DNA of 64,000 bases from a virus. Under the pieces are notes generated by a model. That model did no database searches. It was not told the origin of the DNA and saw nothing but the letters and a program-made list of their open reading frames with translations. Of this stretch, positions 6,572 through 64,000 are shown piece by piece (position 1 is the stretch's first letter; the number at the start of each line of letters is the position of its first letter). The position numbers were made by a program, and so were the translations under genes. The DNA lies in UHGV virus genome UHGV-0371537. The stretch is one strand, 5' to 3'.

Positions 6572-7300
6572 ATGGGTATGAATTATGTTGATCGTGGCGA
6601 GAATGTCGTCAAATATTTTACGGACGAAGATAACGAGCGTGTCATCAGTATCCTTCGTGACTGGATCCCCGCCCGTAAGAAAGCACTGGCCGAAGGAACA
6701 AGACTTCCAAAGATCCCCAACTATGTTGCTGTCCAAGTCCAGCGCATCATCACCAAGATGAGCACCCGCTACAATTATCGTGACTATCCCTTCCGTGAGG
6801 ACATGGTCTCTGAAGCCGTCGTGAACATCCTTCGTTACCTCCACACGTTTGACGTCGGCCATGTGGGCAAGAAAGGCAAAATCAATTTCTTTTCCTGGGT
6901 GACCATGTGTGCTGATCGTTCCTTCGCTCGCAAACTGAACATTGAAGAAGAACACACTTACATCAAGTTGCGCTCCTTTGAAGAGGCAGGCGGTTTCGCA
7001 GGGCTGGCTGATGACCCAGATTTCCAACAAGAGGTCTTCGTTGATGCTACTGGGATTGGTATGGACTTCCGCGAGCGCATCGGTAACTTCGAAAACAAGA
7101 AGGACGCCCAAAGACAGCGGGAACGCGAAAAGGTAGAGACCGCCCGAGCCGCTGAATCGAACAAAAAGATAGCGAAAGGCATACTTCAATACATGTCTCA
7201 GGGTAAGAATACCCCAACAGCGCAGGCCGAAGACGATTCAGATCAGGACTTCGGTAATACCCAATTCGATCTGGAAGAAAACGAAGGAGAAACAGAATAA
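6572..7300 (+). CDS. 55: late-transcription sigma factor gp55-like
   Basis: DW..., RYNY, LHTFD, CADRSF align with T4 gp55 (DWK, RFNF, LHNFD, CFNAF); directly upstream of gp47/gp46 as in T4; acidic C-terminal tail. Confidence 0.75.
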   Translation: MGMNYVDRGENVVKYFTDEDNERVISILRDWIPARKKALAEGTRLPKIPNYVAVQVQRIITKMSTRYNYRDYPFREDMVSEAVVNILRYLHTFDVGHVGKKGKINFFSWVTMCADRSFARKLNIEEEHTYIKLRSFEEAGGFAGLADDPDFQQEVFVDATGIGMDFRERIGNFENKKDAQRQREREKVETARAAESNKKIAKGILQYMSQGKNTPTAQAEDDSDQDFGNTQFDLEENEGETE

Positions 7301-8415
7301 TGGCGATTGCTAAAATCGGCGATCTGCATATCGGGAGCCGTAATGGTTCCCGTTACGTTCGCGACTTCATTAAGAACTATCTCATCAATTATTTCATCCC
7401 CGAGCTGGTCGCCTCCGACATCTATGAGGTGTGGCAGTTCGGTGATACGTTTGATGTCCGTAAATTCATGTACGGGCGTGACAAAGACTGGATGAAGGAT
7501 GAACTCACCCCTGCGTTGAAAGCGGCTGGTATCAAGTGGAATGGTATCGTGGGCAACCATGACATCACCCTGGAAGAGTCCAACCGCATCAACTGGCCAT
7601 CCTACCTGAACGAACTCGACCCTGACGTCTACCACTACTACAGTGAACCGACCGAAGTGATGATTGAGGGTGTTAAGACCCTGCTACTGCCGTGGATCAA
7701 CAAGGAGAACTATGATGCGTCTATTAAGGCGATACAAAATACAGACGCCAAGTACTGTTTTGCGCATTTGGAGTTGGCAGGGTTCAAAATGTACCAGTCC
7801 TCTACTTGTGATCACGGTCAGATCGACGTTACTCTCCTTTCCAAGTTTGACCGGGTCGATACGGGGCATTTCCATACCCGTTCGATGGAAGGTAACATTC
7901 AGTATATTGGGACTCCGTATCACCTGAACTGGGAAGACTACAAAGACGGCACCAACCGTGGCTTCTATGTAGACGACATGCGTGGCGGTGAAGTCTTCAT
8001 CCCTAATGCCGAGCACCAGACGCTGTTCCGCTACGTGGAATATGACTACACCAAATTGTCCTCCGATGACGAAGGCAATTGGATCGACCCGGAATGGCTG
8101 AACACAGGCTTGGGTATTGAAGGACAGATCGTTAAGGTAATCGTACAGAACCGCGACAACGCCAAGCATTATGAGAAGTTCTGTGATGCGATGAAGCGTT
8201 GCAAGTGTATTGACTACAACTTCATCGACCGGACGATTACCGTGGCGGCCGAGAAGGTTGAGGTCACCGAAGAGATGGTGGCAACCGATGCGGTGGAAGT
8301 CCTGAAGAAGGATATCCGCGCCGGGAACAACATCCAGCGCCCAGAAAATGTCTGCAAGCTGGCTGAGTACTTCTACAACGCTGCCCAACAACGCCTGAAC
8401 AAACTGGACGCATAA
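7300..8415 (+). CDS. 47: recombination endonuclease subunit gp47 (Mre11/SbcD-like)
   Basis: Calcineurin-like phosphoesterase motifs GDLHIG, GNHD, GHFH; immediately upstream of the Rad50-like gene. Confidence 0.85.
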   Translation: MAIAKIGDLHIGSRNGSRYVRDFIKNYLINYFIPELVASDIYEVWQFGDTFDVRKFMYGRDKDWMKDELTPALKAAGIKWNGIVGNHDITLEESNRINWPSYLNELDPDVYHYYSEPTEVMIEGVKTLLLPWINKENYDASIKAIQNTDAKYCFAHLELAGFKMYQSSTCDHGQIDVTLLSKFDRVDTGHFHTRSMEGNIQYIGTPYHLNWEDYKDGTNRGFYVDDMRGGEVFIPNAEHQTLFRYVEYDYTKLSSDDEGNWIDPEWLNTGLGIEGQIVKVIVQNRDNAKHYEKFCDAMKRCKCIDYNFIDRTITVAAEKVEVTEEMVATDAVEVLKKDIRAGNNIQRPENVCKLAEYFYNAAQQRLNKLDA

Positions 8416-37335: not shown

Positions 37336-37448
37336 ATAAAACTTGTTTTCAATACTGACGTTGAAAGTTAATATTCACGCAAGTTCGCGCTCCGCTTGGC
37401 GGGGCGCTGTTTAACATGAAGGTGTTAACTTCTTTTCAATAAAAAGTG

Positions 37449-37477
37449 GTTTACATCTATGAAAAATGCAGTATATT
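37449..37477 (+). promoter_or_regulatory. T4-early/sigma70-type promoter GTTTAC-N17-TATATT
   Basis: Read directly: GTTTAC 37449-37454, 17-nt spacer, TATATT 37472-37477; about 70 nt upstream of ATG 37548. Confidence 0.55.
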
Positions 37478-37547
37478 ATGTTCTCACTACACAGTCAGAA
37501 CAGCAATATGCCGCGAAGACGGTCTTAATAACGAAAGGGTTTTTATT

Positions 37548-38444
37548 ATGTCATATATTCTTCATGTAGAATCTGGTTCTAAATTTGATATTGAAGGCAA
37601 AGACGTTGCGGCTATCCAGGCCGAGATCAAGGCCGCAGGCCTGCTGATTGGCAACGTTACCCTGCGCCGTATGGTTGAAGGTGCTCTTGAATCTGCTAAC
37701 GGCTTCGAACTCATCGAAGGTCTGAGCGAAGAAGAGCGACAGGAAACTCAGGAAGCTCTGGCGCAAGCACAAGAGCAGGCTGAAGCCGTGGAAGCACTGA
37801 ACGTAGCCGACACCGTAGCCGATGAAGCGCCGATTTCTGCTGACGCCACTTCTGGTATCGTTGTCGATTCTCAGGACGTGAAACCTGCCGAAGGTGATCA
37901 GGCGGCTGACACTGGCGCAACCACCGCATCCTCCGATGCTATCAAAGATGCCGTTGCCGAAGCCCTGAAAGAAGGCGATCAACCGTCCGACGCGAAAGTG
38001 AGTTCCCTGGCGTCTTCTATGCTGAAAGAAGCGGCGAAGGGTAAAACCCTGACACCTATGGCATCACAGGAAGAGCGTAAGCGCCGTCACACCAAACGCG
38101 AAGAAATGGTAGAAGCCGCTCGTGCGTCCAACCACGGTCCAATCCTGGCTGCCATTGAAGCAGGCGTCGTGCCGGGTGTGTTCCTCAGCTATGTTAACCC
38201 TGATATGCGCTGGTTCCAATTCCCAGTCACAGAACTGGCAGACCCAGAGAACCTGCATGCCCGCACTAACACATACGTTGACGTCGCGCCTATCGTTTCC
38301 GGCGGCTGGGGCTTCAGTCTGTACGTGAACGGCAAATCCTTCACTAAGCGTCAGAAAATCAAAGAGGCCGATGCCGAGTCTCTGGTGAACGCAATCAATG
38401 CCTGGTTGCCTCAGGCGCTGGCCGAAGCGAAAGCTGCTGCTTAA
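37548..38444 (+). CDS. acidic early protein (unknown function)
   Basis: Behind strong promoter GTTTAC-N17-TATATT; long Asp/Glu/Ala-rich low-complexity linker; terminator follows. Confidence 0.55.
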   Translation: MSYILHVESGSKFDIEGKDVAAIQAEIKAAGLLIGNVTLRRMVEGALESANGFELIEGLSEEERQETQEALAQAQEQAEAVEALNVADTVADEAPISADATSGIVVDSQDVKPAEGDQAADTGATTASSDAIKDAVAEALKEGDQPSDAKVSSLASSMLKEAAKGKTLTPMASQEERKRRHTKREEMVEAARASNHGPILAAIEAGVVPGVFLSYVNPDMRWFQFPVTELADPENLHARTNTYVDVAPIVSGGWGFSLYVNGKSFTKRQKIKEADAESLVNAINAWLPQALAEAKAAA

Positions 38445-38474
38445 TTTAAGTTCAGAATCTGTTCAATAGATGAA

Positions 38475-38505
38475 GGGGCTGCTATAATAGCAGCTCCTTT
38501 TGTTT
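38475..38505 (+). terminator. rho-independent terminator whose loop contains TATAAT
   Basis: 8-bp stem (one G-U), loop tataata, then ttttgtttatt. Confidence 0.6.
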
Positions 38506-38518
38506 ATTGGAGCAGTCT

Positions 38519-39184
38519 ATGTCCTACTCCCTCAAGGGGTTGCTCAAGCGCCCCGTCCACACATTCATTAAACCGCCTGTCGTAAAGGGGATATACCCGG
38601 CACGAGGGCAAATCTATTACGTCAAAGGCTCGAATGGTAGCGGTAAATCTACCGTGCCTTCCCAGCTGGCGGAGAGGGATCCTCAGGCGTATGTCGTGAC
38701 GCATGATAGCAAGATCATGCTGACGGTCTGTCCGTCATTCAACGTGGTCTGCATTGGCAAATATGATAAGTCAAAGTCCAAGGGGGTTGATTCTCTGAAG
38801 GATACTGAACAAATGCTATTCGCCCTGAGCATCGCCGATCTACCTGAATATCAGGTATACGATGTGATCTTTGAAGGCATCATCCCGTCAACACTGCTGA
38901 GTTCCTGGATTCCCCGCCTGACGCGCCCACCGCGCGAACTGGTTGTCCTCTTCATGGACACCCCTCTTGAAACCTGCATCGCCCGTGTTAAATCACGTAA
39001 CGGCGGTGCGGACTTCAATGAGAGCCTCGTGGTAGAGAAGTGGGGGCGCGTTCAAGACCACCGCCAGCGCCATAAGGGCTTGTTCCCTACGGTGGCCGCA
39101 GGTATGATGAAGTCTCACGGTCTAACAGTAGACCAGGCTGTAATGGCATTCCTCTGTCGTGATTTTGGGGATATTGATGACTAA
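38519..39184 (+). CDS. P-loop NTPase, kinase-like
   Basis: Walker A YVKGSNGSGKST (close to polynucleotide-kinase-type GxxGSGKST); ggag RBS. Confidence 0.55.
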   Translation: MSYSLKGLLKRPVHTFIKPPVVKGIYPARGQIYYVKGSNGSGKSTVPSQLAERDPQAYVVTHDSKIMLTVCPSFNVVCIGKYDKSKSKGVDSLKDTEQMLFALSIADLPEYQVYDVIFEGIIPSTLLSSWIPRLTRPPRELVVLFMDTPLETCIARVKSRNGGADFNESLVVEKWGRVQDHRQRHKGLFPTVAAGMMKSHGLTVDQAVMAFLCRDFGDIDD

Positions 39185-39749
39185 GAAATTGGTCTATGGG
39201 GTTGGTCACAACGACATGCCCTATGGCACAGCTACGGTAAATGGAAAGGCAACCGACGAATATTCTGCTTGGTCGGGGTTGTTACAAAGGGCGTATGATC
39301 CAAAATACCATGCCAGAAATCCGACTTATGTTGGTTGCTCTGTCGTGGAAGAGTGGCATTTTCGATCGAAATTCGTTAAGTGGTTTGGTGTGAACTACGT
39401 TAAAGGATGGTGTCTAGACAAGGATATTTTGAATCCTGGAAACAAAGTTTATGGCCCAGACACATGCATCTATGTGCCCGTTTGGATCAATACATTTGCC
39501 AATGATAGCGGCGCAATAAGGGGTGGTCTCCCAATAGGAGTTTCATTAAACAAGACAACCGGAAAATATCTTTCTCAGTGTAAATCCGGTGGTAAAGTGA
39601 TAAATCTGGGTTATTACGACGACCCCAAAGAAGCGCACGAGGTTTGGTTGAGATTTAAGCTAAACCTGGTTTTGGAAAGGAAGAAAGACATGGATAGTAT
39701 AGACCATCGTATTTATCCAAATCTGGTTCATATTTTGCAAAGTAAATGA
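39177..39749 (+). CDS. homing-endonuclease-like protein with AP2-like DNA-binding motif
   Basis: A+T-rich gene; KVINLGYYDDPKEAHEVWL resembles AP2/HNH_3-associated DNA-binding motif. Confidence 0.4.
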   Translation: MTKKLVYGVGHNDMPYGTATVNGKATDEYSAWSGLLQRAYDPKYHARNPTYVGCSVVEEWHFRSKFVKWFGVNYVKGWCLDKDILNPGNKVYGPDTCIYVPVWINTFANDSGAIRGGLPIGVSLNKTTGKYLSQCKSGGKVINLGYYDDPKEAHEVWLRFKLNLVLERKKDMDSIDHRIYPNLVHILQSK

Positions 39750-39765
39750 TTATTGGAGACCAATT

Positions 39766-40812
39766 ATGGAAATCAAAGCAATTAACAACAATGACATGCT
39801 GAAAAAGGCTGTCTTGGCTATCCGCGAATACGGGATTGAGTCAGACCCTGGCAACGCGGAGATTAACACGGACGGCACCCGCTTCCTTGATGGTGTGACG
39901 ATTACCGTGGATGATATCCGTGACCGCTGGCTGTCTGTTGAAGGTCGTAACTCATCGGCTATCGCTGCCATCGGCGAGACCTTCTGGGTTCTGTCCGGGC
40001 GCGATGACGTTCGCTTCCTGTCCCGTGTGTTGCCCCGCGCCGCCAACTTTTCCGACAACGGCCACACATGGCGAGCCGCTTATGGTCCGCGTCTGTACGC
40101 CCATGGCCAGCTGGATAGCGTCATCAACCGCCTGCGTAAGAACCCAAACACTCGCCAGGCGTACCTCACCATCTATGACCCGGCTCTGGATTCAGATGCT
40201 GGCCTGGCGAAGTTCAGCGAGAGTGGCGAAGCGAAGACTAAAGACATGGTGTGTAACCTGGCTCTGTTGTTCGCCATCGTTGAAGGTCGTCTGAACCTGA
40301 CGGTCATCAACCGCTCGCAAGATGTTCTGTGGGGTATGAGTTCAATCAATTTCATTGAGTTCTCTATCCTTCAGGAAGTGATTGCTCAGGTGCTGGATGT
40401 TGATGTCGGTCAGTACAAGCTCTTCTCCAACAATCTTCATTACTACAACAATGAAGTCAGCCAGAAGCAGCTGGGCAAGATCACGAAGGACACCAAAGTA
40501 GAAGCTGGGTTCATCAACTCCATGATTCACTTCAAGAACGTGACCAACCAGAACCATATCCGGAATCTGTTCACTGGTGTGCTTCATCATTGTGATATCG
40601 GTAGCCCTTGGGAAACTGTGGTCGCCCACCTGAAGGAATATGATGCTGATCGCGGCCTGATTGTACAGATGGCATACTGCCTGTATTGTAAGCTGAACGA
40701 CAAGCTCATCAACATGAACCTGATTCAGGATCATGGTCTGAACATCGCGCTCACCCATTCCCCGGTTGACCGCAAGATCGTTGATCCTAAGTTCCTGGAA
40801 GGTGCAGCATGA
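39766..40812 (+). CDS. thymidylate-synthase-superfamily enzyme, probable pyrimidine-nucleotide hydroxymethylase (gene-42 position)
   Basis: TDGTRF, catalytic-Cys region DMVCNLALLF, INRSQDVLWGMSSINF align to TS motifs (PCH..., YQRSxDVFLGxPFNIASY) but lack the PCH His; about 80-aa C-terminal extension. Confidence 0.65.
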   Translation: MEIKAINNNDMLKKAVLAIREYGIESDPGNAEINTDGTRFLDGVTITVDDIRDRWLSVEGRNSSAIAAIGETFWVLSGRDDVRFLSRVLPRAANFSDNGHTWRAAYGPRLYAHGQLDSVINRLRKNPNTRQAYLTIYDPALDSDAGLAKFSESGEAKTKDMVCNLALLFAIVEGRLNLTVINRSQDVLWGMSSINFIEFSILQEVIAQVLDVDVGQYKLFSNNLHYYNNEVSQKQLGKITKDTKVEAGFINSMIHFKNVTNQNHIRNLFTGVLHHCDIGSPWETVVAHLKEYDADRGLIVQMAYCLYCKLNDKLINMNLIQDHGLNIALTHSPVDRKIVDPKFLEGAA

Positions 40813-41378
40813 TGTACCCAAACCTTGAATTCTTTACGGGGCGCAAGCGCTCTGGTAAGGACTTCTGTTTGGAGTCCCTCATCAGCTATCACCATCTACA
40901 GGGCGATATGGATATCCAACGCCTTTCGTTCTCGGACGAACTGCGCCGGGTTGCCAACTACATCTACCCATGGCTGCCAGCGGAGGTAGAGGATGCCGTG
41001 AAGGACGTTCCTTACGTCCACCCTGATAACCCCAAGGGCTTAACCCCAAGGCAGATCTGGCTCCATCTCGGCAGCGATACGGGCTTGCGTTACGTACAGC
41101 CTGATCTGTTCCTGGCGTTCTTCAAGCGCTTCCAGCTTCCTCTGGTAGAGCAGAACCCTCACGTCCATTATATCGTGAGTGATCTGCGCACCCCTCAGGA
41201 ATATGAATGGGCGCTGAGTACGAAATGTCCTATCACCCGCATTTCAAAGGCCGACCGCGCTGGTATCATAGAGGACGATATAGAGGCTTTCATTGACAAG
41301 ATGGAAGTCGACTACGAATTCCTCAATCCATTTGATGGTTGGGCACCGTTCGTTAAATTCTACGGAGAACGTAAATGA
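40809..41378 (+). CDS. 1: deoxynucleoside monophosphate kinase (gp1-like)
   Basis: N-terminal FFTGRKRSGKD matches T4 gp1 FLSGVKRSGKD. Confidence 0.7.
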   Translation: MMYPNLEFFTGRKRSGKDFCLESLISYHHLQGDMDIQRLSFSDELRRVANYIYPWLPAEVEDAVKDVPYVHPDNPKGLTPRQIWLHLGSDTGLRYVQPDLFLAFFKRFQLPLVEQNPHVHYIVSDLRTPQEYEWALSTKCPITRISKADRAGIIEDDIEAFIDKMEVDYEFLNPFDGWAPFVKFYGERK

Positions 41379-41914
41379 TCACAGCAGGGCATATCAAAAG
41401 CCTGCTCGAACTCCAAAAGGCCACTAATGTGGCCTACTTTGGCGACGAGTGGCGAAACCACTGGACTGAAGTCGCGGTGGTGAACTCTGTATACCGCGAG
41501 TGGGCTGAGTTCCTTGACGAAGTATCCAGCAGCTGGAAGATATATGGCAGCGACCAGAAATGGCACCAGGTGAACGCGATTTACGAATTGGTGGACGTTG
41601 TTCACTTCATGCTGTCGCGTTTGCTACTGTCCAATCAGGCCATAGAAATTGAAATGCGTGACGAATACTTTGGTGTGGAAATTACTAAAGTCAATAACTT
41701 CAATGTCGTCACCACTATGTTCACAACGTTCATGACAGCACCGACCTGTCAGAATCTGGCGTACTTTATTGCGTATGCTTGTCCCTATTTGGGTATCGAC
41801 TTTGAAACCTACATGCTGGCACACAAGCGCAAGAACGATCGCAATCGTCTGCGTGCTGCTGGCGGTGCGGATTACGATAAGTCCGCCGAAACCCCTCTGA
41901 CCCTGGAGTTCTAA
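41375..41914 (+). CDS. 56: dCTP/dUTP pyrophosphatase gp56-like (all-alpha NTP-PPase)
   Basis: AIYELVDVVHFMLSRL resembles T4 gp56 FELVDIFHFVLNMF. Confidence 0.6.
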   Translation: MITAGHIKSLLELQKATNVAYFGDEWRNHWTEVAVVNSVYREWAEFLDEVSSSWKIYGSDQKWHQVNAIYELVDVVHFMLSRLLLSNQAIEIEMRDEYFGVEITKVNNFNVVTTMFTTFMTAPTCQNLAYFIAYACPYLGIDFETYMLAHKRKNDRNRLRAAGGADYDKSAETPLTLEF

Positions 41915-42456
41915 TGTTTACAGTCGTCGTTTCATATCATGCAGACAACGCGGCGAACGCATCCGCTAATTTCACCGAGCACATCATCGGCGGCGGCCAT
42001 AATGTATTCCTCACCGAATACACCAGGCCTGTTAAACCGGGCGACGGTCTTTCGGCGACTGTTACACACAAGATCGCCAGCGAAGAACCTGAATCTCTGT
42101 TCCGGATGATCGAAGAGTATGCAGGCGGCGGGGTAGAAATACCCGAAGCGCTGCTGGACGTGTACTTCGAAGGAGCGATCTATTACATCCACGCCATACC
42201 GAAGGATGTATCTACGGAGCAGTTGATGTATATCCTGAACATTGCGCTGAATTGTGCCTGCATCAACCGCACGAACTACAACAATCTGCGCAATATGTAC
42301 CTAACCGACCGACATAATGAAGCGGCTTCGCCTGTTGAGATGATGTCTCTGAAGAGCATCCAAGAGGCGGTCAACATTTTGTCCCAGAAGGTTATGGGTG
42401 TAGAATTATTAACGACGATCAACAATAAAGAGGAAGTGAAATGGCCAGTTCATTAA
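41914..42456 (+). CDS. hypothetical protein (occupies the position of beta-glucosyltransferase in T4)
   Basis: 180 aa; no recognisable motif; too short for a GT-B glycosyltransferase. Confidence 0.5.
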   Translation: MFTVVVSYHADNAANASANFTEHIIGGGHNVFLTEYTRPVKPGDGLSATVTHKIASEEPESLFRMIEEYAGGGVEIPEALLDVYFEGAIYYIHAIPKDVSTEQLMYILNIALNCACINRTNYNNLRNMYLTDRHNEAASPVEMMSLKSIQEAVNILSQKVMGVELLTTINNKEEVKWPVH

Positions 42457-43526
42457 TGGACCGCATGCTGAAGGTTGCCAAGAAACATGACGACCAGGCT
42501 TCAGTGCTGTCTCAATCCGAAGCCCTGGAACCAAAGATCATTTGTTCAACTGGTATTCCCCTGATTGACATCGCCTGGTCTGGACGCGTCGATGGTGGGC
42601 TGATCTCCGGCATCAAGATGATGGTGGGCGACTCCCGTACATTTAAAACGATGTTTGGTCTGGTAGACGTCAAGGCGTATATGGACAAGTTCTCTGATGC
42701 CCTGTGTATCTTCGCGGACTCCGAGAAGGGTGCCAACGCCGACTACTGGACGTCCATGGGGATCGATATGGACCGCGTACTGTACGTGCCGATTGACAAC
42801 GTTGAGCAGACCAAGATCCGCCTGCTGCAAATCCTTCAAGAAGTTAAGAAGGGTGACCATGTCATCATCTTTATTGACTCTATCAGTCAGCTTCCCTCCA
42901 CCAAGGAAGTTGAAGATGCGATCAAAGGCAATGACACCCAAGACATGACCCGCGCCCGTGCCCTCAACAGCTTCTGGCGCGTTATGACTCCTGAAATCAA
43001 CAGCAAAGAACTCGTGTGTGTTTGGATCAACTCATATTACGACGAGATCGGAAACCAGTATGCCGAGCCTAACATCAAAGGCGGCAAGCAGGGCTTCTTA
43101 TCCTCCAACCTGATCTGGTTCATCACCCGTTCGCAGGTGAAGGAAGACAAAGATCTGCTAGGTTGGAACTTCAACATCGGCATCATGAAAGGCCGCCATG
43201 TGAAAGAGAAAGCCAAGCTCCCTGTGACAGTGCTGTACGACGGTGGTATCGACCGTTGGAGTGGCTTGCTTGAGATCGCTCGTGCTCTGGGTTACGTTGA
43301 TATGCCGTCTTCCGGCTGGTATGTGCGTACAGCCAAGGGTGGCTTCGATCCTGAGAAGGAAAAGAAATACCAGAAGCGTCAGATGGATGATGATTTCTGG
43401 TATCCACTTCTGGAGAATGCCGACTTCGCCGATGACGTGAAGAAGATGTTTGGTGTTTCTAACGGTACTGTTATGCCTGCAAACATGCTGGAGCAGATGG
43501 ACCATGTTATCAACACATCCGAGTGA
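42441..43526 (+). CDS. uvsX: recombinase UvsX (RecA-like)
   Basis: IPLIDIAWSGRVDGGL, FIDSISQLPSTKEVEDA, DMTRARALNSFWRV, LYDGGIDRWSGLLEIA match T4 UvsX segments. Confidence 0.9.
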   Translation: MASSLMDRMLKVAKKHDDQASVLSQSEALEPKIICSTGIPLIDIAWSGRVDGGLISGIKMMVGDSRTFKTMFGLVDVKAYMDKFSDALCIFADSEKGANADYWTSMGIDMDRVLYVPIDNVEQTKIRLLQILQEVKKGDHVIIFIDSISQLPSTKEVEDAIKGNDTQDMTRARALNSFWRVMTPEINSKELVCVWINSYYDEIGNQYAEPNIKGGKQGFLSSNLIWFITRSQVKEDKDLLGWNFNIGIMKGRHVKEKAKLPVTVLYDGGIDRWSGLLEIARALGYVDMPSSGWYVRTAKGGFDPEKEKKYQKRQMDDDFWYPLLENADFADDVKKMFGVSNGTVMPANMLEQMDHVINTSE

Positions 43527-43528
43527 CA

Positions 43529-43833
43529 ATGGAGGGGGAGGCAACTCCCCCAATAACTACACACTCATCGACCTTGGTCCTGATCAGCTGGCGATCGTCA
43601 AGATCACTTCTGGCAAATTCCGTGGTGTTCAATTCCGGTTCGGCAAGGTTGCCATCAACGAAGTGGACGGTGAACCCCGTTTGTCTTTCGTGACTGATAT
43701 ATTGAAGAAACCATTGCGTCTGATGTTTGTGAATTTGAAAGAAAATGACTTGTTCACTGAGGTGTCAGGGGATATCCTTGTAGACCTTATGCAGCGTAAT
43801 GCTCAGGAATACAATAAATTTTTGGTGGGGTAG
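43529..43833 (+). CDS. hypothetical protein in gene-40 position; start/frame unresolved
   Basis: ATG 43529 two nt after UvsX stop is in a different frame from the long coding frame that ends at 43833; G5 and C5 runs in between. Confidence 0.3.
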
Positions 43834-43838
43834 TGCCA

Positions 43839-45263
43839 ATGTTACTCGAATCTGTCGTGCTTTCACAGTTGATTTACAATGAAGATTACCAAAGAAAGAT
43901 CCTGCCGTATCTGAAAGCCGATTATTTTGACAACGAAGGCGAAAAGGTCATATTTGGCCTGATTGACAGTTATGCCGCAGAGTACAATGCCCGCCCGTCT
44001 ATCGAAGCGCTGTCTATCATTCTTGAACGGACAAAGCTGAACGAATATGTGTTTGACCAGGCAGTATCTGCCCTGGAGAACATCAACGACAACACCTTCA
44101 ATGAAGAGTGGCTGGCGAAGGAAACGGAGACCTGGGCGCGGCAAAAGGCCGTACACAATGCTATCAAGACCGCCGTCAACATCTATGGGGACGAAAAGCG
44201 CAAGGATGAGATGAACAACATCCCGACCTTGTTGCAGGAAGCCCTGGCTATCCGGTTCGATTCATACCTCGGACACATCTATTGGGAGATGGCGGCTGAG
44301 CAGTATGACCATATGAACTCCAACGAGGCCAAGATCCCGTTTGCTGTTGAGATATTCAACAAGGCGACCCGTGGTGGTGTTGGCAAGAAGACCCTGAACA
44401 TCGTGACAGGTGCGATCAACGCAGGTAAGACAACAACTCTGATCGACCTGACTGCAGGATATGCTGAGCAGGGTTTAAACGTCTTTGTATTCACGCTCGA
44501 AGTGGCCGAGAACGTCTGGCGTCATCGCCTTGATGCCCGTATCATGCGCAGAGACTTTGAGTCCTTGGAGAAGCTCCCAAGGCACGAGTACATCGCCACG
44601 ATAGAGAAGCTCCGACACAAACAGGACGGCTCTCCCAAGGGTGATATCGTCATCAAGGAATATCCGTCTGGCGCAGGCCATACAGGTTTGTTCCGCCGCG
44701 ACATCCTTGAGTACATTCAGGCAACCGGGCGCTCCCCAGATGTTATCGTTATCGACTATCTTGGTGAAGCTGCTTCCTCGCGCTTGCCTGCTCACCTGAT
44801 GCAGAACACGAACGTCTATTACACGTCTGTGGCTCGTGAGTTTCGCGCTCTGGGTTTCGAATTTGACGTTCCTGTTTGGACTGGTATGCAGTTCAATCGC
44901 GAGAACCAGAACACAACAGATGGTAGTATCAGTGACCTGGCAGATGCTATCGGTATCCCAAAGGTCGCAGATTTCATCATGGCATTTTATGCTCCTGATG
45001 AATTGGCGGCGGTCAAGAAAGCCCGAGCCTCAATCCTCAAGAACCGTTATGCCAACAAGCAGAAGCTCAAGTCATTCCTGTTTGGTATGGACCAAGACAA
45101 GCAGATCCTGTTTGATCTTGACTGGAACGAAGTGAAGAAGGACCTGACTGAAACCGAGGCGAAGTATGTTGAGAATGTCCATATCAAACATGACCTCAAC
45201 AAGTCCGGGTCCACTGTCAGTGATGAGCAGAAAGCCCAAACAGTTAATAACTGGAAATTCTAA
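43839..45263 (+). CDS. 41: replicative DNA helicase gp41 (DnaB-like)
   Basis: 475 aa; Walker A GAINAGKTT; T4-like order uvsX-40-41. Confidence 0.85.
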   Translation: MLLESVVLSQLIYNEDYQRKILPYLKADYFDNEGEKVIFGLIDSYAAEYNARPSIEALSIILERTKLNEYVFDQAVSALENINDNTFNEEWLAKETETWARQKAVHNAIKTAVNIYGDEKRKDEMNNIPTLLQEALAIRFDSYLGHIYWEMAAEQYDHMNSNEAKIPFAVEIFNKATRGGVGKKTLNIVTGAINAGKTTTLIDLTAGYAEQGLNVFVFTLEVAENVWRHRLDARIMRRDFESLEKLPRHEYIATIEKLRHKQDGSPKGDIVIKEYPSGAGHTGLFRRDILEYIQATGRSPDVIVIDYLGEAASSRLPAHLMQNTNVYYTSVAREFRALGFEFDVPVWTGMQFNRENQNTTDGSISDLADAIGIPKVADFIMAFYAPDELAAVKKARASILKNRYANKQKLKSFLFGMDQDKQILFDLDWNEVKKDLTETEAKYVENVHIKHDLNKSGSTVSDEQKAQTVNNWKF

Positions 45264-56935: not shown

Positions 56936-57343
56936 TCAGTCGTCCAGGTGGTCGTAGATCTTCTGACGGAATGCATTACCGCCAGCACAGCCCGTGGCCA
57001 GCAGGCGAGTGCCGCCTGTACCGATGACACTGATGGTAGAGAAGCCCAGGATGCGGCCTGTGATGGACTGGTCGACCTTCACTGTTTCCACCTTGCCGAT
57101 GCGCAACTCATCAGCATCACGACGGATGAATCCGCGCTTGACGATGACACGTTTGTTGGTCACAGCGAATTCAGTGGTCAACACGTTCAGCACAGTCGGG
57201 ATCAGGAACAACAGACTGACACCGAAGGTCGGAACAAACAGCAGTACAACCAGCACATACATCCAGAAACCACTCCACCAGGTCGGGCGGGTGAAGGCAA
57301 TAACGTGCTCGTCTTTGCCGAGCATACGATCTACATAACGCAT
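56936..57343 (-). CDS. membrane protein with bacterial PH-like (bPH_2) domain
   Basis: Two N-terminal TM helices then NKRVIVKRGFIRRDADELRIGKVETVKV pattern. Confidence 0.5.
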   Translation of the reverse strand: MRYVDRMLGKDEHVIAFTRPTWWSGFWMYVLVVLLFVPTFGVSLLFLIPTVLNVLTTEFAVTNKRVIVKRGFIRRDADELRIGKVETVKVDQSITGRILGFSTISVIGTGGTRLLATGCAGGNAFRQKIYDHLDD

Positions 57344-57353
57344 GATAAATTCC

Positions 57354-57863
57354 TTACTTGTCAGGGTTCACTAAAACAGGGTTAGATACCAGTTCGCCGT
57401 TCTTCACAGAATGCTGAACCACAGCAAACTGATCGACCATGCGATACACTTCAATCCCAGCAGCCAACATTTCAATAATACCGTCTGTGATCCGGTACGG
57501 TACATTGTATATGACCTTACCAATCTTGCCACTGTCGATAATACGACGGGTGCATTCCGGACACGGACTGTGGGTGACAAACATCACCAGACCACACCAG
57601 TCTTCAGCCCACTGGGGGAGTTTGTTTAAGGCATTCTCCTCAGCGTGGATAACGCCCACCGATACCAGTTGACCGTCCACTTCTTTCTCGCAAACATTTG
57701 GAGCGCCGGGGGCTGTCCCGTTCCAGCCGATAGATAGGGGCTGGTCAACACGTGGGTCAACGATAACACAGCCGACCTTCAGGCGCTGGGCATAGCTGGA
57801 CAGAGCGTATGCATGAGCAGAGCGCATATGCGCAAACATCATACGGGGTTTGATAGCCATCAC
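57354..57863 (-). CDS. cd: dCMP deaminase
   Basis: Zinc-binding HAEENAL and PCPEC motifs of cytidine/deoxycytidylate deaminases. Confidence 0.85.
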   Translation of the reverse strand: MMAIKPRMMFAHMRSAHAYALSSYAQRLKVGCVIVDPRVDQPLSIGWNGTAPGAPNVCEKEVDGQLVSVGVIHAEENALNKLPQWAEDWCGLVMFVTHSPCPECTRRIIDSGKIGKVIYNVPYRITDGIIEMLAAGIEVYRMVDQFAVVQHSVKNGELVSNPVLVNPDK

Positions 57864-58897: not shown

Positions 58898-59454
58898 ATT
58901 TCAATCCCCAGATTGGTGTATAACAACTCAGACAGGGTTACAGGACGCTTGAATTGTTCCCAACTACAGTTCAGGTATTCACGTTCTTCACGCATTTCAC
59001 TGTGAAGATGACCATGGATATTATACGCCCAGCGGTCCAATTGATAAGGAACGTGAGTGGTCAGCACACGACCAACCGGAGTATCACGCTCATACATCGC
59101 ACCAAAGGAGCTAATCCATCCCTCTTGATACAGCTGCATCAACATCTTGAATCTGTCATGGTTGCCTTGCGCCACCCTGATGATAAAGTTCGGTCGCCAG
59201 TCATCGGGAACCGGGCGGCGCTTGAACTCATCAATATTCCTCTTGGCACCCTCGCGCATCAGGCGAATGAACCCCTCAGCCCCGATGAAGCAGATGTCCC
59301 CAGCCAGTTCAAGGACGTCTCGGGACTTCAGCCCCTGAAAGATACTGTCGATAACTGCAGCATCATGCGCCTCTTGGGTATCGAACCCACGGGGCTTGAA
59401 GACCTTCTTGTGTCCGAGGTGGGTGTCGCCCAGATATTTTACAATTCCTGCCAT
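58894..59454 (-). CDS. calcineurin-like metallophosphoesterase
   Basis: GDTHLGH, GNHD, GHLH metal-ligand motifs; ATG 59454 with GAGGAG RBS. Confidence 0.6.
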
Positions 59455-59882
59455 TATGGTCTCCTCAACCATTCTAAAATCGATACGTTCACAAACCCCT
59501 TATGCCAGCGATGGGGTTTATGGCCTCTGTTGTGTTCGAGCAAACACGTGTCCGGTGGGACACTGAAGTGGATGCCGTCGATGTCGTAGTAATGCCCATC
59601 AATCAGAGTATACACATGACCTTCGGTCTGACTGTAATGGATCTCTGCTTGAGGGTACACGTGCTTCAACAACAGAGCGACCTGGTAACACTTCCCGTTC
59701 TTCCCCACGTACTCGACATCCACCTGTTGTGGAAACACATCTTTGACAAGGTTTATCAATCTCGTGATGTCATTTACAACAACCGAACGTTTCATATCGC
59801 CTCTCCCGAGGATTCGTTGGTGAACCAATGATACTCTATCCCGGATATAGAAAAGCCCCTCACGGGGCTTGATCATCTTCAT
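59454..59882 (-). CDS. hypothetical protein
   Basis: ORF track. Confidence 0.45.
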
Positions 59883-62987: not shown

Positions 62988-64000
62988 TTATAGGCCAAGA
63001 GCCTTTTCAAGGTCATCAAGATCTTCAGCGTACAGATCAATGTCCTCTTTCTTACTTAATTCCTTGTGTTGTGCTTCAAGGTTCTCAATCTGCTTGAGTA
63101 GGCGCTCACGGGCATCCAAGGTGATGGATGATAGAGGCATCTTGAACAATTCGTCAAGGTCACCATCAAAGTCTGGGTAGTCTGTCTGGAACAATGCCTT
63201 CAGCTCATCAAGACTGCGTCGTAGGTCAGTCACCACAGCCCATGCAATAAACAGGGCACGATTGTTCAGCTTACGAATTCTGTCGGCCATATCCTTCAAC
63301 AGATACTGGCGACGGTCTTCATACCGTGACAGGCGATAGTTGAAGAACGGCAACAACATATCCTGCCAACCAGCATAACGATGGATTACCCCGTCTTCAT
63401 CCCATGCTGTCCAAACAGGCTTGTTGGCAGAGTACAACTTGAACATCTGCTCAACCTGTTCATCACTCAGCTTAGAGAGTTCACCCCGCTTGAATACAAC
63501 CGTGATATCCCAGCCGTCTTCGGTCGTGTCGTTGGCGTACTCGGTCAGGATACCAGCCTTGTACAGAGGCAGCAACACCTTGGTCTCATAGGTCTTGGCA
63601 AACCAACCCACTGGGACTTCGGTGATATGCAGGGTGGTGGCATTGACGCGACGGAAGATGCCGCGACTGTATGCCCTTCCTTCCTCAGTATAGCCTGTCT
63701 CCCCTTTGTAGCCGTTCCAGTACGGTTTTAAGTCTTTCGGGTCTTCGCCACGGAGAAGCGCTCTCAGGGCACTGAGCACGGACTTAACGCAATGACAAGG
63801 GGTGTCGGTGGAATATCCGGTGCCGATACCATTGATCCCATTCACCAGGAACATGGGTAGGATGGGCAGGAAGAACTTCGGCTCCAGTCTTTCTTCACCA
63901 AGGTAATTGTATTCTAAAATACCCTCATCCTCCTTACGGAAGATCTTGCGGATAACATCAGACACAGCCACCGAAATGTAACGTGCCGACGACGCGTCGC
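62988..64000 (-). CDS. 52: DNA topoisomerase II GyrA-like subunit (gp52-like), partial; N-terminus beyond window
   Basis: FLVNGINGIGTGYSTDTP matches GyrA/ParC motif [21 protein letters not shown]; frame open to window end. Confidence 0.6.
   Translation of the reverse strand, partial: DASSARYISVAVSDVIRKIFRKEDEGILEYNYLGEERLEPKFFLPILPMFLVNGINGIGTGYSTDTPCHCVKSVLSALRALLRGEDPKDLKPYWNGYKGETGYTEEGRAYSRGIFRRVNATTLHITEVPVGWFAKTYETKVLLPLYKAGILTEYANDTTEDGWDITVVFKRGELSKLSDEQVEQMFKLYSANKPVWTAWDEDGVIHRYAGWQDMLLPFFNYRLSRYEDRRQYLLKDMADRIRKLNNRALFIAWAVVTDLRRSLDELKALFQTDYPDFDGDLDELFKMPLSSITLDARERLLKQIENLEAQHKELSKKEDIDLYAEDLDDLEKALGL

What the first reader, a model, noticed from the sequence alone, without database searches (positions are those of the whole stretch)
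38519..42456. Nucleotide-modification module without recognisable glycosyltransferases
A TS-superfamily enzyme (39766-40812) sits where T4 has dCMP hydroxymethylase gp42. It keeps a catalytic-Cys region (DMVCNLALLF) and the RSQD...INF core, lacks the thymidylate-synthase PCH histidine, and carries about 80 extra C-terminal residues. It is followed by a gp1-like dNMP kinase, a gp56-like dCTPase and an unassignable 180-aa protein in the beta-glucosyltransferase slot, and preceded by a P-loop kinase (38519-39184). gp55 abuts gp47 with no alpha-glucosyltransferase between. This points to cytosine (or uracil) replacement by a hydroxymethyl-pyrimidine, with any further decoration done by unknown enzymes.
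Basis: partly seen in the sequence, partly recalled or inferred. Interest (0 to 1): 0.6.

Follow-up and report, generated by a model that had tools for sequence, protein, structure and literature searches.

The report
Known ViI-type thymidine hypermodification gene module
This is the already described gene cluster with which ViI-like (Ackermannviridae) phages replace thymine by 5-hydroxymethyluracil and then phosphorylate it in DNA on the way to the hypermodified base 5-NeOmdU, so it is ordinary for this phage family.

Summary
The module is not enigmatic. The window comes from an Ackermannviridae phage, 88-93% identical in DNA to Agtrevirus, Limestonevirus and Yersinia phage CAU_YEP3. Region 38519-42456 is colinear with Salmonella phage ViI orf67-orf62.

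- **The "P-loop kinase"** is the 5-hmdU DNA kinase (Pfam PF18748, E=1.7e-106). It is 86% identical to ViI gp67, whose activity has been shown biochemically.
- **The TS-like enzyme** is the dUMP hydroxymethylase, acting on uracil rather than cytosine. It has Asn195 in the E. coli TS Asn177 column, where T4 gp42 has Asp. It matches SPO1 gp29 at 1e-28 and does not match gp42.
- **The downstream genes** are a dNMP kinase, a dimeric-dUTPase-family pyrophosphatase and a small ACT-like protein of unknown role that does not have a glycosyltransferase fold.
an HNH homing-endonuclease gene (39177-39749) sits between the kinase and the TS homolog.
- **Also in the window:** a dCMP deaminase at 57354-57863(-).
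- **Later steps:** the serine transferase and PLP decarboxylase lie outside the window. They are conserved at about 90% in all close relatives.

Verdict: already known, low interest. It is wrong in favouring cytosine and in calling the decorating enzymes unknown.

The parts
38519..39184 (+). 5-hydroxymethyl-dU DNA kinase (5-HMUDK), the ortholog of ViI gp67. It phosphorylates 5-hmdU residues in replicated DNA to 5-PmdU.
   Evidence: Pfam PF18748 HMUDK_HMUD1, E=1.7e-106, 354 bits, profile positions 1-195 of 196. 86% identity over 220 aa to ViI YP_004327432, which is shown to be a 5-hmdU DNA kinase in PMC8989533. Walker A GSNGSGKST at residues 37-45, read from the sequence. GenBank labels such as 'terminase small subunit' or 'thymidylate kinase' are misannotations.
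39177..39749 (+). Free-standing HNH/AP2-type homing-endonuclease gene inserted exactly at the kinase/TS-homolog junction. It is a mobile passenger, not a pathway enzyme.
   Evidence: PHROG 953 'HNH endonuclease', E=2.9e-79, with only a weak AP2 match in Pfam. Absent from ViI and ChubbyThor, where the kinase stop codon overlaps the TS-homolog start (alignment A3). Present in CAU_YEP3 and pSal-SNUABM-02. The inserted DNA is 98.5-100% identical to the CAU_YEP3 copy, while the flanks are 70-96% identical.
39766..40812 (+). dUMP hydroxymethylase (thymidylate-synthase homolog). It makes 5-hmdUMP from dUMP and methylene-tetrahydrofolate.
   Evidence: Pfam Thymidylat_synt, E=4.1e-16. PHROG 3676, E=4.8e-185. 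77% identity to ViI orf66 and 98.8% to the ChubbyThor homolog. SPO1 gp29, the deoxyuridylate hydroxymethylase, hits this ORF at 1.2e-28, while T4 gp42 and E. coli ThyA give no hit at E<=10. Cys163, Arg183, Ser184, Asp186, His225 and Tyr227 are conserved. Asn195 sits in the TS Asn177 column, where gp42 has Asp. Asn164 replaces TS His147, as in SPO1 gp29. It scores far below every NCBIfam thymidylate-synthase equivalog cut-off, at most 57.6 bits against cut-offs of 108-427.
40809..41378 (+). Deoxynucleoside monophosphate kinase. It is inferred to phosphorylate 5-hmdUMP to the diphosphate.
   Evidence: PHROG 139 'deoxynucleoside monophosphate kinase', E=5.7e-47. 92% identity to ViI 'dnk' orf65. 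Only P-loop-level similarity to T4 gp1 by BLASTP. Its start overlaps the TS-homolog stop by 4 nt.
41375..41914 (+). All-alpha NTP pyrophosphatase of the dimeric dUTPase family. It is inferred to clear dUTP, and possibly dTTP, from the pool.
   Evidence: Pfam PF08761 dUTPase_2, E=3.7e-9, 37.5 bits against a cut-off of 22.9. PHROG 173, E=2.8e-37. 71% identity to ViI orf63. The closest solved structure is the Campylobacter jejuni dimeric dUTPase 1w2y, E=2.3e-4. Only a short metal-site motif is shared with T4 gp56.
41914..42456 (+). ACT-like small protein (PF24021), conserved in this position in Ackermannviridae. Its function is unknown; it is not a glycosyltransferase.
57354..57863 (-). dCMP deaminase. 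It supplies dUMP for the hydroxymethylase.
   Evidence: Pfam PF00383 dCMP_cyt_deam_1, E=6.4e-16. The role is taken from the hmU-phage pathway as summarised in PMC8989533.
6572..8415 (+). The gp55-type late sigma factor gene (6572-7300) directly abutting the gp47-type SbcD nuclease gene (7300-8415). This is context showing that there is no alpha-glucosyltransferase slot.
   Evidence: tblastn of ViI orf122 (annotated late sigma factor) gives 77% identity, E=9e-120. tblastn of ViI orf121 (annotated SbcD-like) gives 90% identity, E=0.

Best explanation
The region is the front end of the Ackermannviridae (ViI-type) thymidine-hypermodification pathway.

**Before replication:**
- dCMP deaminase (57354-57863, minus strand) supplies dUMP.
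- The TS homolog (39766-40812) uses its catalytic Cys163 and methylene-tetrahydrofolate to hydroxymethylate dUMP at C5. The product is 5-hmdUMP, not dTMP.
- The dNMP kinase (40809-41378) makes the diphosphate, and host NDP kinase makes 5-hmdUTP.
- The dimeric-dUTPase-family pyrophosphatase (41375-41914) keeps competing dUTP, and possibly dTTP, low.
- The phage polymerase then incorporates 5-hmdU opposite A.

**After replication:**
- The 5-hmdU DNA kinase (38519-39184) transfers the gamma-phosphate of ATP to the hydroxymethyl group in DNA, giving 5-PmdU.
- Enzymes encoded elsewhere in the genome finish the job. These are an aGPT-Pplase2 serine:DNA transferase and a PLP-dependent decarboxylase, homologs of ViI gp247 and gp226. 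Together they convert 5-PmdU to O-serinyl-thymidine and then to 5-(2-aminoethoxy)methyl-dU (5-NeOmdU) at a fraction of T positions. The remaining positions end up as thymine.
- The modified DNA resists many restriction endonucleases.

**Other genes in the region:**
- The ACT-like protein (41914-42456) is a co-transcribed accessory of unknown role, possibly a small-ligand-binding regulator.
- The HNH gene (39177-39749) is a selfish insertion.

**What is shown here:** family membership, orthology to ViI, the active-site residues, the gene order and the overlaps.

**What is taken from the literature:** the kinase, transferase and decarboxylase activities of the ViI orthologs, and the presence of 5-NeOmdU in ViI, CBA120 and phiHS2 DNA.

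**What is inferred:** the product of the TS homolog, the substrates of the dNMP kinase and the pyrophosphatase, and the presence of the later enzymes in this particular genome.
For: **Source of the window:** it is an Ackermannviridae genome, 88-93% identical in DNA to Agtrevirus, Limestonevirus and CAU_YEP3.

**Colinearity with ViI orf67-orf62, by protein identity:**
- kinase 86%
- TS homolog 77%
- dNMP kinase 92%
- pyrophosphatase 71%
- ACT-like protein 58%

**Kinase:** PF18748 5-hmdU DNA kinase, E=1.7e-106. ViI gp67 (YP_004327432) is a demonstrated 5-hmdU DNA kinase (PMC8989533).

**TS homolog:**
- Asn195 aligns with TS Asn177 and the SPO1 gp29 Asn. T4 gp42 has Asp in that column.
- SPO1 dUMP hydroxymethylase hits at 1.2e-28. 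gp42 and ThyA give nothing.

**Other pathway genes:** dCMP deaminase is present in the window.

**Translational coupling:** TS homolog to dNMP kinase overlaps by 4 nt, dNMP kinase to dUTPase by 4 nt, dUTPase to ACT-like by 1 nt, and ACT-like to uvsX by 16 nt.

**Later enzymes in relatives:**
- gp247 homologs at 88-92% in Agtrevirus and Limestonevirus.
- gp226 homologs at 91-92% in CAU_YEP3 and SKML-39.

**Literature:**
- 5-NeOmdU replaces about 40% of T in ViI and CBA120, and the genes are conserved across the family (PMC5889632; PMC11721090).
- It was confirmed by HPLC-MS in a Taipeivirus (bioRxiv 10.64898/2026.05.19.726188).
Against: - The transferase, decarboxylase, second kinase and aGPT-Pplase1 genes are not in this 64-kb window (tblastn). 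Their presence in this genome rests on synteny with relatives.
- I found no direct enzymatic assay of the ViI-type TS homolog in the papers read. Its product is inferred from residues, from homology to SPO1 gp29 and from the chemistry of the family's DNA.
- The substrate range of the dUTPase-family enzyme is unknown. About 60% of T positions are plain thymine in ViI, so complete dTTP exclusion is not proven.
- The role of the ACT-like protein is unexplained.
Confidence: 0.9

Rival explanations
1. The TS homolog is a dCMP hydroxymethylase in the gp42 position, the pyrophosphatase is a dCTPase, and cytosine is replaced by 5-hydroxymethylcytosine that stays unglucosylated or is decorated by unknown enzymes.
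For: - The position is analogous to T4 uvsX-beta-gt-42.
- The best PDB sequence matches are CMP 5-hydroxymethylases of the MilA type (5b6d, E=4e-17).
- The TS histidine is lost.
Against: - Asn195, not Asp, occupies the base-discriminating column. In the HMMER alignment the MilA CMP hydroxymethylase also shows Asp at the corresponding spot, as does T4 gp42 in alignment A1.
- T4 gp42 gives no tblastn hit at E<=10, while SPO1 dUMP hydroxymethylase hits at 1e-28.
- The adjacent gene is a 5-hmdU-specific DNA kinase.
- A dCMP deaminase that feeds dUMP is encoded in the window.
- The pyrophosphatase belongs to the dUTPase_2 family.
- Measured DNA of family members carries modified T, not modified C.
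Confidence: 0.02
2. The genes are what most GenBank records call them: an ordinary thymidylate synthase plus a thymidylate kinase or small terminase subunit. They would simply boost dTTP supply, with no base modification.
For: Annotations of relatives read 'thymidylate synthase', 'putative thymidylate kinase' and 'terminase small subunit'. The Pfam TS domain match passes its gathering threshold.
Against: - The score is far below every NCBIfam thymidylate-synthase equivalog cut-off, at most 57.6 bits against cut-offs of 108-427.
- His147 is replaced by Asn and the C-terminus is different.
- E. coli ThyA gives no tblastn hit.
- The 'kinase/terminase' is a full-length PF18748 member, 86% identical to an enzyme shown to phosphorylate 5-hmdU in DNA.
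- ViI has a separate small terminase gene next to its large terminase gene.
Confidence: 0.02
3. The front end is the same (5-hmdU synthesis and phosphorylation in DNA), but this phage finishes with a different group from 5-NeOmdU. The downstream transferase or tailoring genes, which are not visible in the window, would differ.
For: - The later genes are outside the window.
- The exact ACT-like protein and a 50-mer taken from its gene are not on record in the collections searched, so the rest of the genome could not be retrieved.
- Thymidine-hypermodification clusters are combinatorially diverse in metaviromes (PMC8989533).
Against: - Every close relative examined keeps gp247 and gp226 homologs at about 88-92% identity.
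- The counts of records per host genus for the module and for gp247/gp226 are nearly the same.
- The review states that the genes are conserved family-wide.
Confidence: 0.05

Closest known systems
Salmonella phage ViI (Vi01) 5-NeOmdU pathway: orf67 (5-HMUDK gp67), orf66 (TS homolog), orf65 (dnk), orf63 (dUTPase family), orf62, together with the distant gp160, gp226, gp243 and gp247
   Same: The gene order and orientation relative to uvsX and gp41 are the same. Protein identities are 86, 77, 92, 71 and 58%. The kinase family (PF18748) and the type of TS homolog are the same.
   Different: An HNH homing-endonuclease gene is inserted between the kinase and the TS homolog here. The later pathway genes cannot be seen in this window. 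The genome belongs to the Aglimvirinae-like branch rather than to Kuttervirus.
Bacillus phage SPO1 gp29 deoxyuridylate hydroxymethylase and the hmU-phage pre-replicative pathway
   Same: Both are TS-fold enzymes with the catalytic Cys followed by Asn (CNL), Asn in the Asn177 column and a long C-terminal extension. Identity is 34% with E=1e-28. Both phages also use a dNMP kinase, a pyrophosphatase and a dCMP deaminase.
   Different: SPO1 keeps 5-hmdU as the final base. It is known to carry no hypermodified thymidine, which implies no 5-HMUDK step; this was not tested here. The phage in the window goes on to phosphorylate and substitute the hydroxymethyl group.
T4 hydroxymethylcytosine/glucosylation system (gp42, gp1, gp56, alpha-gt and beta-gt)
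   Same: The logic is the same: a TS-family hydroxymethylase, a dNMP kinase and an NTP pyrophosphatase remodel the pool, and decoration follows replication. The chromosomal neighbourhood next to uvsX and gp41 is analogous.
   Different: The base is uracil/thymine, not cytosine (Asn195 against Asp179). There is no significant similarity to gp42 or beta-gt, and only motif-level similarity to gp1 and gp56. Decoration goes by phosphorylation and amino-acid transfer rather than by glucosyl transfer.
Streptomyces MilA CMP 5-hydroxymethylase (PDB 5b6d, 5jnh)
   Same: It is the best solved-structure sequence match (E=4e-17). It is a TS-fold hydroxymethylase with a C-terminal extension.
   Different: MilA acts on a cytosine ribonucleotide. 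In the HMMER alignment it shows Asp, not Asn, at the position corresponding to Asn195.

Membership tests
5-hmdU DNA kinase (5-HMUDK, Pfam PF18748) | Full-length match to the family profile above the curated cut-off | tested here: met
   354.5 bits against a cut-off of 27, E=1.7e-106, profile positions 1-195 of 196
5-hmdU DNA kinase (5-HMUDK, Pfam PF18748) | P-loop (Walker A) NTP-binding motif | tested here: met
   GSNGSGKST at residues 37-45 of the ATG-start protein, read from the translation and aligned with ViI gp67
5-hmdU DNA kinase (5-HMUDK, Pfam PF18748) | Close orthology to a biochemically validated member | tested here: met
   86% identity over 220 aa to ViI gp67 YP_004327432. The activity is reported in PMC8989533.
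5-hmdU DNA kinase (5-HMUDK, Pfam PF18748) | ATP-dependent phosphorylation of 5-hmdU within DNA | not testable with these tools
   Needs an enzyme assay on SP8-type 5-hmdU DNA
dUMP hydroxymethylase (TS superfamily, SPO1 gp29 type) | TS fold with the catalytic Cys and the dUMP phosphate/ribose ligands | tested here: met
   Pfam TS match, E=4.1e-16. Cys163, Arg130, Arg183, Ser184, Asp186, His225 and Tyr227 are invariant in alignment A1.
dUMP hydroxymethylase (TS superfamily, SPO1 gp29 type) | Asn (uracil-specific) rather than Asp (cytosine-specific) at the TS Asn177 / gp42 Asp179 position | tested here: met
   Asn195 aligns with E. coli N177 and the SPO1 Asn. T4 gp42 has Asp there.
dUMP hydroxymethylase (TS superfamily, SPO1 gp29 type) | Closer to a proven dUMP hydroxymethylase than to thymidylate synthases or dCMP hydroxymethylase | tested here: met
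   SPO1 gp29 hits by tblastn at 1.2e-28. E. coli ThyA and T4 gp42 give no hit in this ORF at E<=10.
dUMP hydroxymethylase (TS superfamily, SPO1 gp29 type) | The product is 5-hmdUMP (water addition instead of hydride transfer) | not testable with these tools
   Inferred from the His147-to-Asn164 change shared with SPO1 gp29 and from the 5-hmdU-derived base found in DNA of family members
Canonical thymidylate synthase ThyA | Score above the curated equivalog cut-offs, and the Pro-Cys-His active-site motif | tested here: not met
   The best NCBIfam score is 57.6 bits, and all seven matches fall below their cut-offs of 108-427 bits. The motif is Val-Cys-Asn.
T4 gp42 dCMP hydroxymethylase | Asp at position 179, and detectable similarity to gp42 | tested here: not met
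   Asn is at that column. There is no gp42 tblastn hit in the ORF at E<=10.
T4-type DNA glucosyltransferases (alpha-gt, beta-gt) | A homolog present, or a gene in the 55/47 slot or the uvsX/42 slot with a GT fold | tested here: not met
   No beta-gt hit in the window. gp55 abuts gp47. The slot protein has an ACT-like fold, not a GT-B fold. The alpha-gt sequence itself was not searched.
Dimeric (all-alpha) dUTPase family, Pfam PF08761 | Profile match above the cut-off and similarity to a solved dimeric dUTPase | tested here: met
   37.5 bits against a cut-off of 22.9. C. jejuni dUTPase 1w2y, E=2.3e-4. The substrate specificity cannot be tested here.
Phage ACT-like domain family, Pfam PF24021 | Full-length profile match and a beta-alpha-beta-beta-alpha-beta core | tested here: met
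Complete ViI-type 5-NeOmdU pathway | aGPT-Pplase2 serine:DNA transferase and PLP-dependent decarboxylase encoded by the same genome | tested here: inconclusive
   Neither is in the 64-kb window. From ViI synteny both are expected outside it. Both are present at 88-92% identity in the closest relatives.

The most novel reading that the evidence does not exclude
The ACT-like protein (41914-42456, PF24021) is confined to this phage family. It is always translationally coupled between the pyrophosphatase and uvsX. It might be a functional part of the modification system that nobody has characterised. One possibility is a ligand-sensing regulator that sets the ratio of hypermodified T to plain T. 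Another is a factor in the still unexplained conversion of 5-hmdU/5-PmdU to plain thymine. My evidence does not exclude either, but it does not point to them specifically.
Probability: 0.1. Interest if true: 0.5.

Novelty: already known. Interest (0 to 1): 0.1.

Why it matters
It matters little as a discovery. The pathway was worked out in phage ViI (PNAS 2018, NAR 2021) and is regarded as a hallmark of all Ackermannviridae.

The practical value lies in annotation. In many GenBank relatives these genes are still labelled 'thymidylate synthase', 'thymidylate kinase', 'terminase small subunit' or 'dCTP pyrophosphatase'. The correct reading predicts that this phage's DNA carries 5-NeOmdU. That in turn predicts resistance to many restriction enzymes, with consequences for cloning, sequencing chemistry and therapeutic use.

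Two things remain open:
- the role of the ACT-like protein;
- how the unmodified fraction of T arises.

Tried and rejected
1. **Cytosine pathway.** Rejected on the Asn195 alignment, the lack of gp42 similarity and the 5-hmdU-specific kinase.
2. **Later pathway genes in the window.** I searched the window for ViI gp160, gp226, gp243, gp247 and the MazG-like protein by tblastn. None was found, as expected from synteny.
3. **Recovering the source genome, to check the later genes.** A 50-mer scan of IMG/VR found nothing. An exact-protein look-up of the ACT-like protein found nothing on record.
5. **Direct T4 gp1 and gp56 comparisons.** Only short motif matches came up, so the 'gp1-like' and 'gp56-like' labels are downgraded to superfamily level.
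6. **Promoter and terminator scan.** The counts were no better than in shuffled sequence, apart from one strong hairpin at 38472-38500. No transcription-unit claim is made.
7. **NCBIfam.** It gave no specific name for the kinase, the dNMP kinase or the ACT-like protein.

Full report
**What is there.**
- 38519-39184. The mechanical ORF starts at a TTG at 38507; the ATG at 38519 matches the start of the ViI ortholog.
- 39766-40812
- 40809-41378
- 41375-41914
- 41914-42456

These are followed by uvsX (42441-43526), a small ORF and the gp41-type helicase (43833-45263). Successive genes overlap by 1-16 nt, except for a 16-nt spacer after the extra ORF. That is consistent with translational coupling.

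**Where the window comes from.** Megablast of the module and of 25 kb around it hits about 270-280 phage records, almost all Ackermannviridae. The best are Yersinia phage CAU_YEP3, Salmonella phage pSal-SNUABM-02, the Agtrevirus phages (ChubbyThor, MK-13, SKML-39, Ag3, P46FS4) and the Dickeya Limestonevirus phages, at 88-94% identity. The region is colinear with Salmonella phage Vi01 (ViI) genes orf67 to orf59.

**Identity of each gene.**
- **Kinase.** The "P-loop kinase" is a full-length member of Pfam PF18748, 5-hmdU DNA kinase (E=1.7e-106). It is 86% identical to ViI gp67. ViI gp67 (YP_004327432) was shown to phosphorylate 5-hmdU in DNA (PMC8989533).
- **TS homolog.** It is 77% identical to ViI orf66 and 98.8% identical to the ChubbyThor protein.
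- **dNMP kinase.** The next gene matches PHROG 139, dNMP kinase (E=5.7e-47), and is 92% identical to ViI 'dnk'.
- **Pyrophosphatase.** The next gene belongs to Pfam dUTPase_2 and is 71% identical to ViI orf63. Its closest solved relative is the Campylobacter dimeric dUTPase 1w2y.
- **180-aa protein.** It is a full-length PF24021 'Phage ACT-like domain' protein (E=8.8e-80), 58% identical to ViI orf62.

- HMMER against PDB sequences aligns 'RSQDVLWGMSSINF' with E. coli 'RSCDVFLGLP-FNIA'. That places Asn195 on TS Asn177.
- A MAFFT alignment with ViI orf66, SPO1 gp29, E. coli ThyA and T4 gp42 gives the same column: Asn in the window protein, ViI, SPO1 and ThyA, and Asp in gp42 (residue numbers).
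- Cys163, Arg130, Arg183, Ser184, Asp186, His225 and Tyr227 are invariant.
- TS His147 is Asn164 here, as in SPO1 gp29 (motif CNL).
- By tblastn, SPO1 gp29, deposited as deoxyuridylate hydroxymethylase, hits the ORF at 1.2e-28. T4 gp42 and E. coli ThyA give nothing at E<=10.
- Against NCBIfam, the protein falls far below all thymidylate-synthase equivalog cut-offs.

So the protein is a dUMP hydroxymethylase-type enzyme. It is neither a dCMP hydroxymethylase nor a genuine thymidylate synthase. The C-terminal extension is real: 348 aa against 264 for ThyA. SPO1 gp29 also has one.

**No glucosyltransferases.**
- The ViI late sigma factor (gp55-type) homolog (6572-7300) abuts the SbcD/gp47 homolog (7300-8415).
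- T4 beta-gt has no hit in the window. The alpha-gt sequence was not searched.
- Its homologs form 20 clusters, all carrying PF24021 and 116-181 aa long. The named ones come from phages of Dickeya, Escherichia, Salmonella and Klebsiella.

**Rest of the pathway.**
- A dCMP deaminase is encoded at 57354-57863 on the minus strand. It is the usual dUMP supplier in hmU phages (PMC8989533).
- The ViI enzymes for the later steps have no homolog in the window. These are gp247 (serine:DNA transferase), gp226 (PLP decarboxylase), gp243 (second kinase) and gp160 (aGPT-Pplase1).
- In ViI they lie 50-110 kb away from orf67, so they are expected to fall outside these 64 kb.
- In the closest relatives they are present and well conserved. 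gp247 is at 88-92% in P46FS4, Gloob and Dickeya XF4. gp226 is at 91-92% in CAU_YEP3 and SKML-39.
- I could not recover the source genome itself.

**Mechanism.** The best-supported mechanism is the published one (PMC5889632, PMC8989533):
- dUMP is converted to 5-hmdUMP by the TS homolog.
- 5-hmdUMP goes to the diphosphate (phage dNMP kinase) and then the triphosphate (host NDK).
- The phage polymerase incorporates it into DNA.
- The 5-HMUDK phosphorylates the base in DNA, giving 5-PmdU.
- gp247 transfers serine, giving O-SerT.
- gp226 decarboxylates it, giving 5-NeOmdU.
- The other 5-hmdU positions end up as thymine by an unknown route.

5-NeOmdU replaces about 40% of T in ViI and CBA120 and about 16% in a Taipeivirus. 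It blocks many restriction enzymes.

**Comparison and novelty.** This is the ViI system itself, in a slightly divergent Aglimvirinae-like genome. A 2024 review states that the genes are conserved across the family. Only two things go beyond the literature:
- the HNH insertion, a mobile element that is 98.5-100% identical to the CAU_YEP3 copy in otherwise 70-96% identical surroundings;
- the still uncharacterised ACT-like protein.

The finding is therefore real. It was interpreted partly correctly, and it is already explained. Interest is low.

Noticed in passing
window 39177-39749 (+): An HNH/AP2-type homing-endonuclease gene is inserted precisely at the kinase/TS-homolog junction. In ViI and ChubbyThor the two genes overlap there (…ATTGATTGATGG…). 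The insert is 98.5-100% identical to the copy in Yersinia phage CAU_YEP3. Identity drops to about 80% immediately downstream and is 92-96% upstream. This points to recent horizontal movement and a recombination mosaic. The PHROG match covers only the C-terminal half of the profile (positions 193-385 of 420), so the nuclease domain may be atypical.
   Followed up: partly
window 39766-40812 compared with L007 (CAU_YEP3) and L008 (ChubbyThor): The TS-homolog gene is 98.8% identical in protein to Agtrevirus ChubbyThor. It is only about 71-81% identical in DNA to CAU_YEP3. Yet the HNH gene next door matches CAU_YEP3 almost perfectly. The module is a mosaic of two lineages.
   Followed up: partly
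window 38472-38500 (+): A strong 13-bp-stem hairpin followed by a T-rich tail lies 19 nt upstream of the kinase start codon. No sigma-70-like promoter lies between them. It may be a terminator or processing site separating the module from the upstream gene (37446-38444, PHROG 3905, unknown function).
   Followed up: no
window 57354-57863 (-) and 56936-57343 (-): A dCMP deaminase (PF00383, E=6.4e-16) is followed directly by a bacterial-PH-domain (bPH_2) protein. The deaminase fits the hmdU pathway. The bPH_2 neighbour is unexplained.
   Followed up: no
window 38519-39184, and relatives in GenBank: The 5-hmdU DNA kinase is widely mislabelled in public records and in PHROGs. The labels include 'terminase small subunit' (PHROG 800, RefSeq Vi01, CAU_YEP3) and 'putative thymidylate kinase' (ChubbyThor, Dickeya phages).
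   Followed up: yes
window 43450-43833 (+): A 127-aa ORF sits in the position of T4 gene 40, between uvsX and gp41. Its TTG start overlaps uvsX by 77 nt. It has no Pfam match and no similarity to T4 gp40. The true start is probably further downstream; the ViI and ChubbyThor counterparts are 109 aa.
   Followed up: no
window 62988-63971 (-) and 59454-59882 (-): A topoisomerase IV/gyrase A-type subunit (PF00521, E=4.7e-40) and a phage YunG-like protein (PF24591) lie near the right end of the window. They are ordinary for this family.
   Followed up: no
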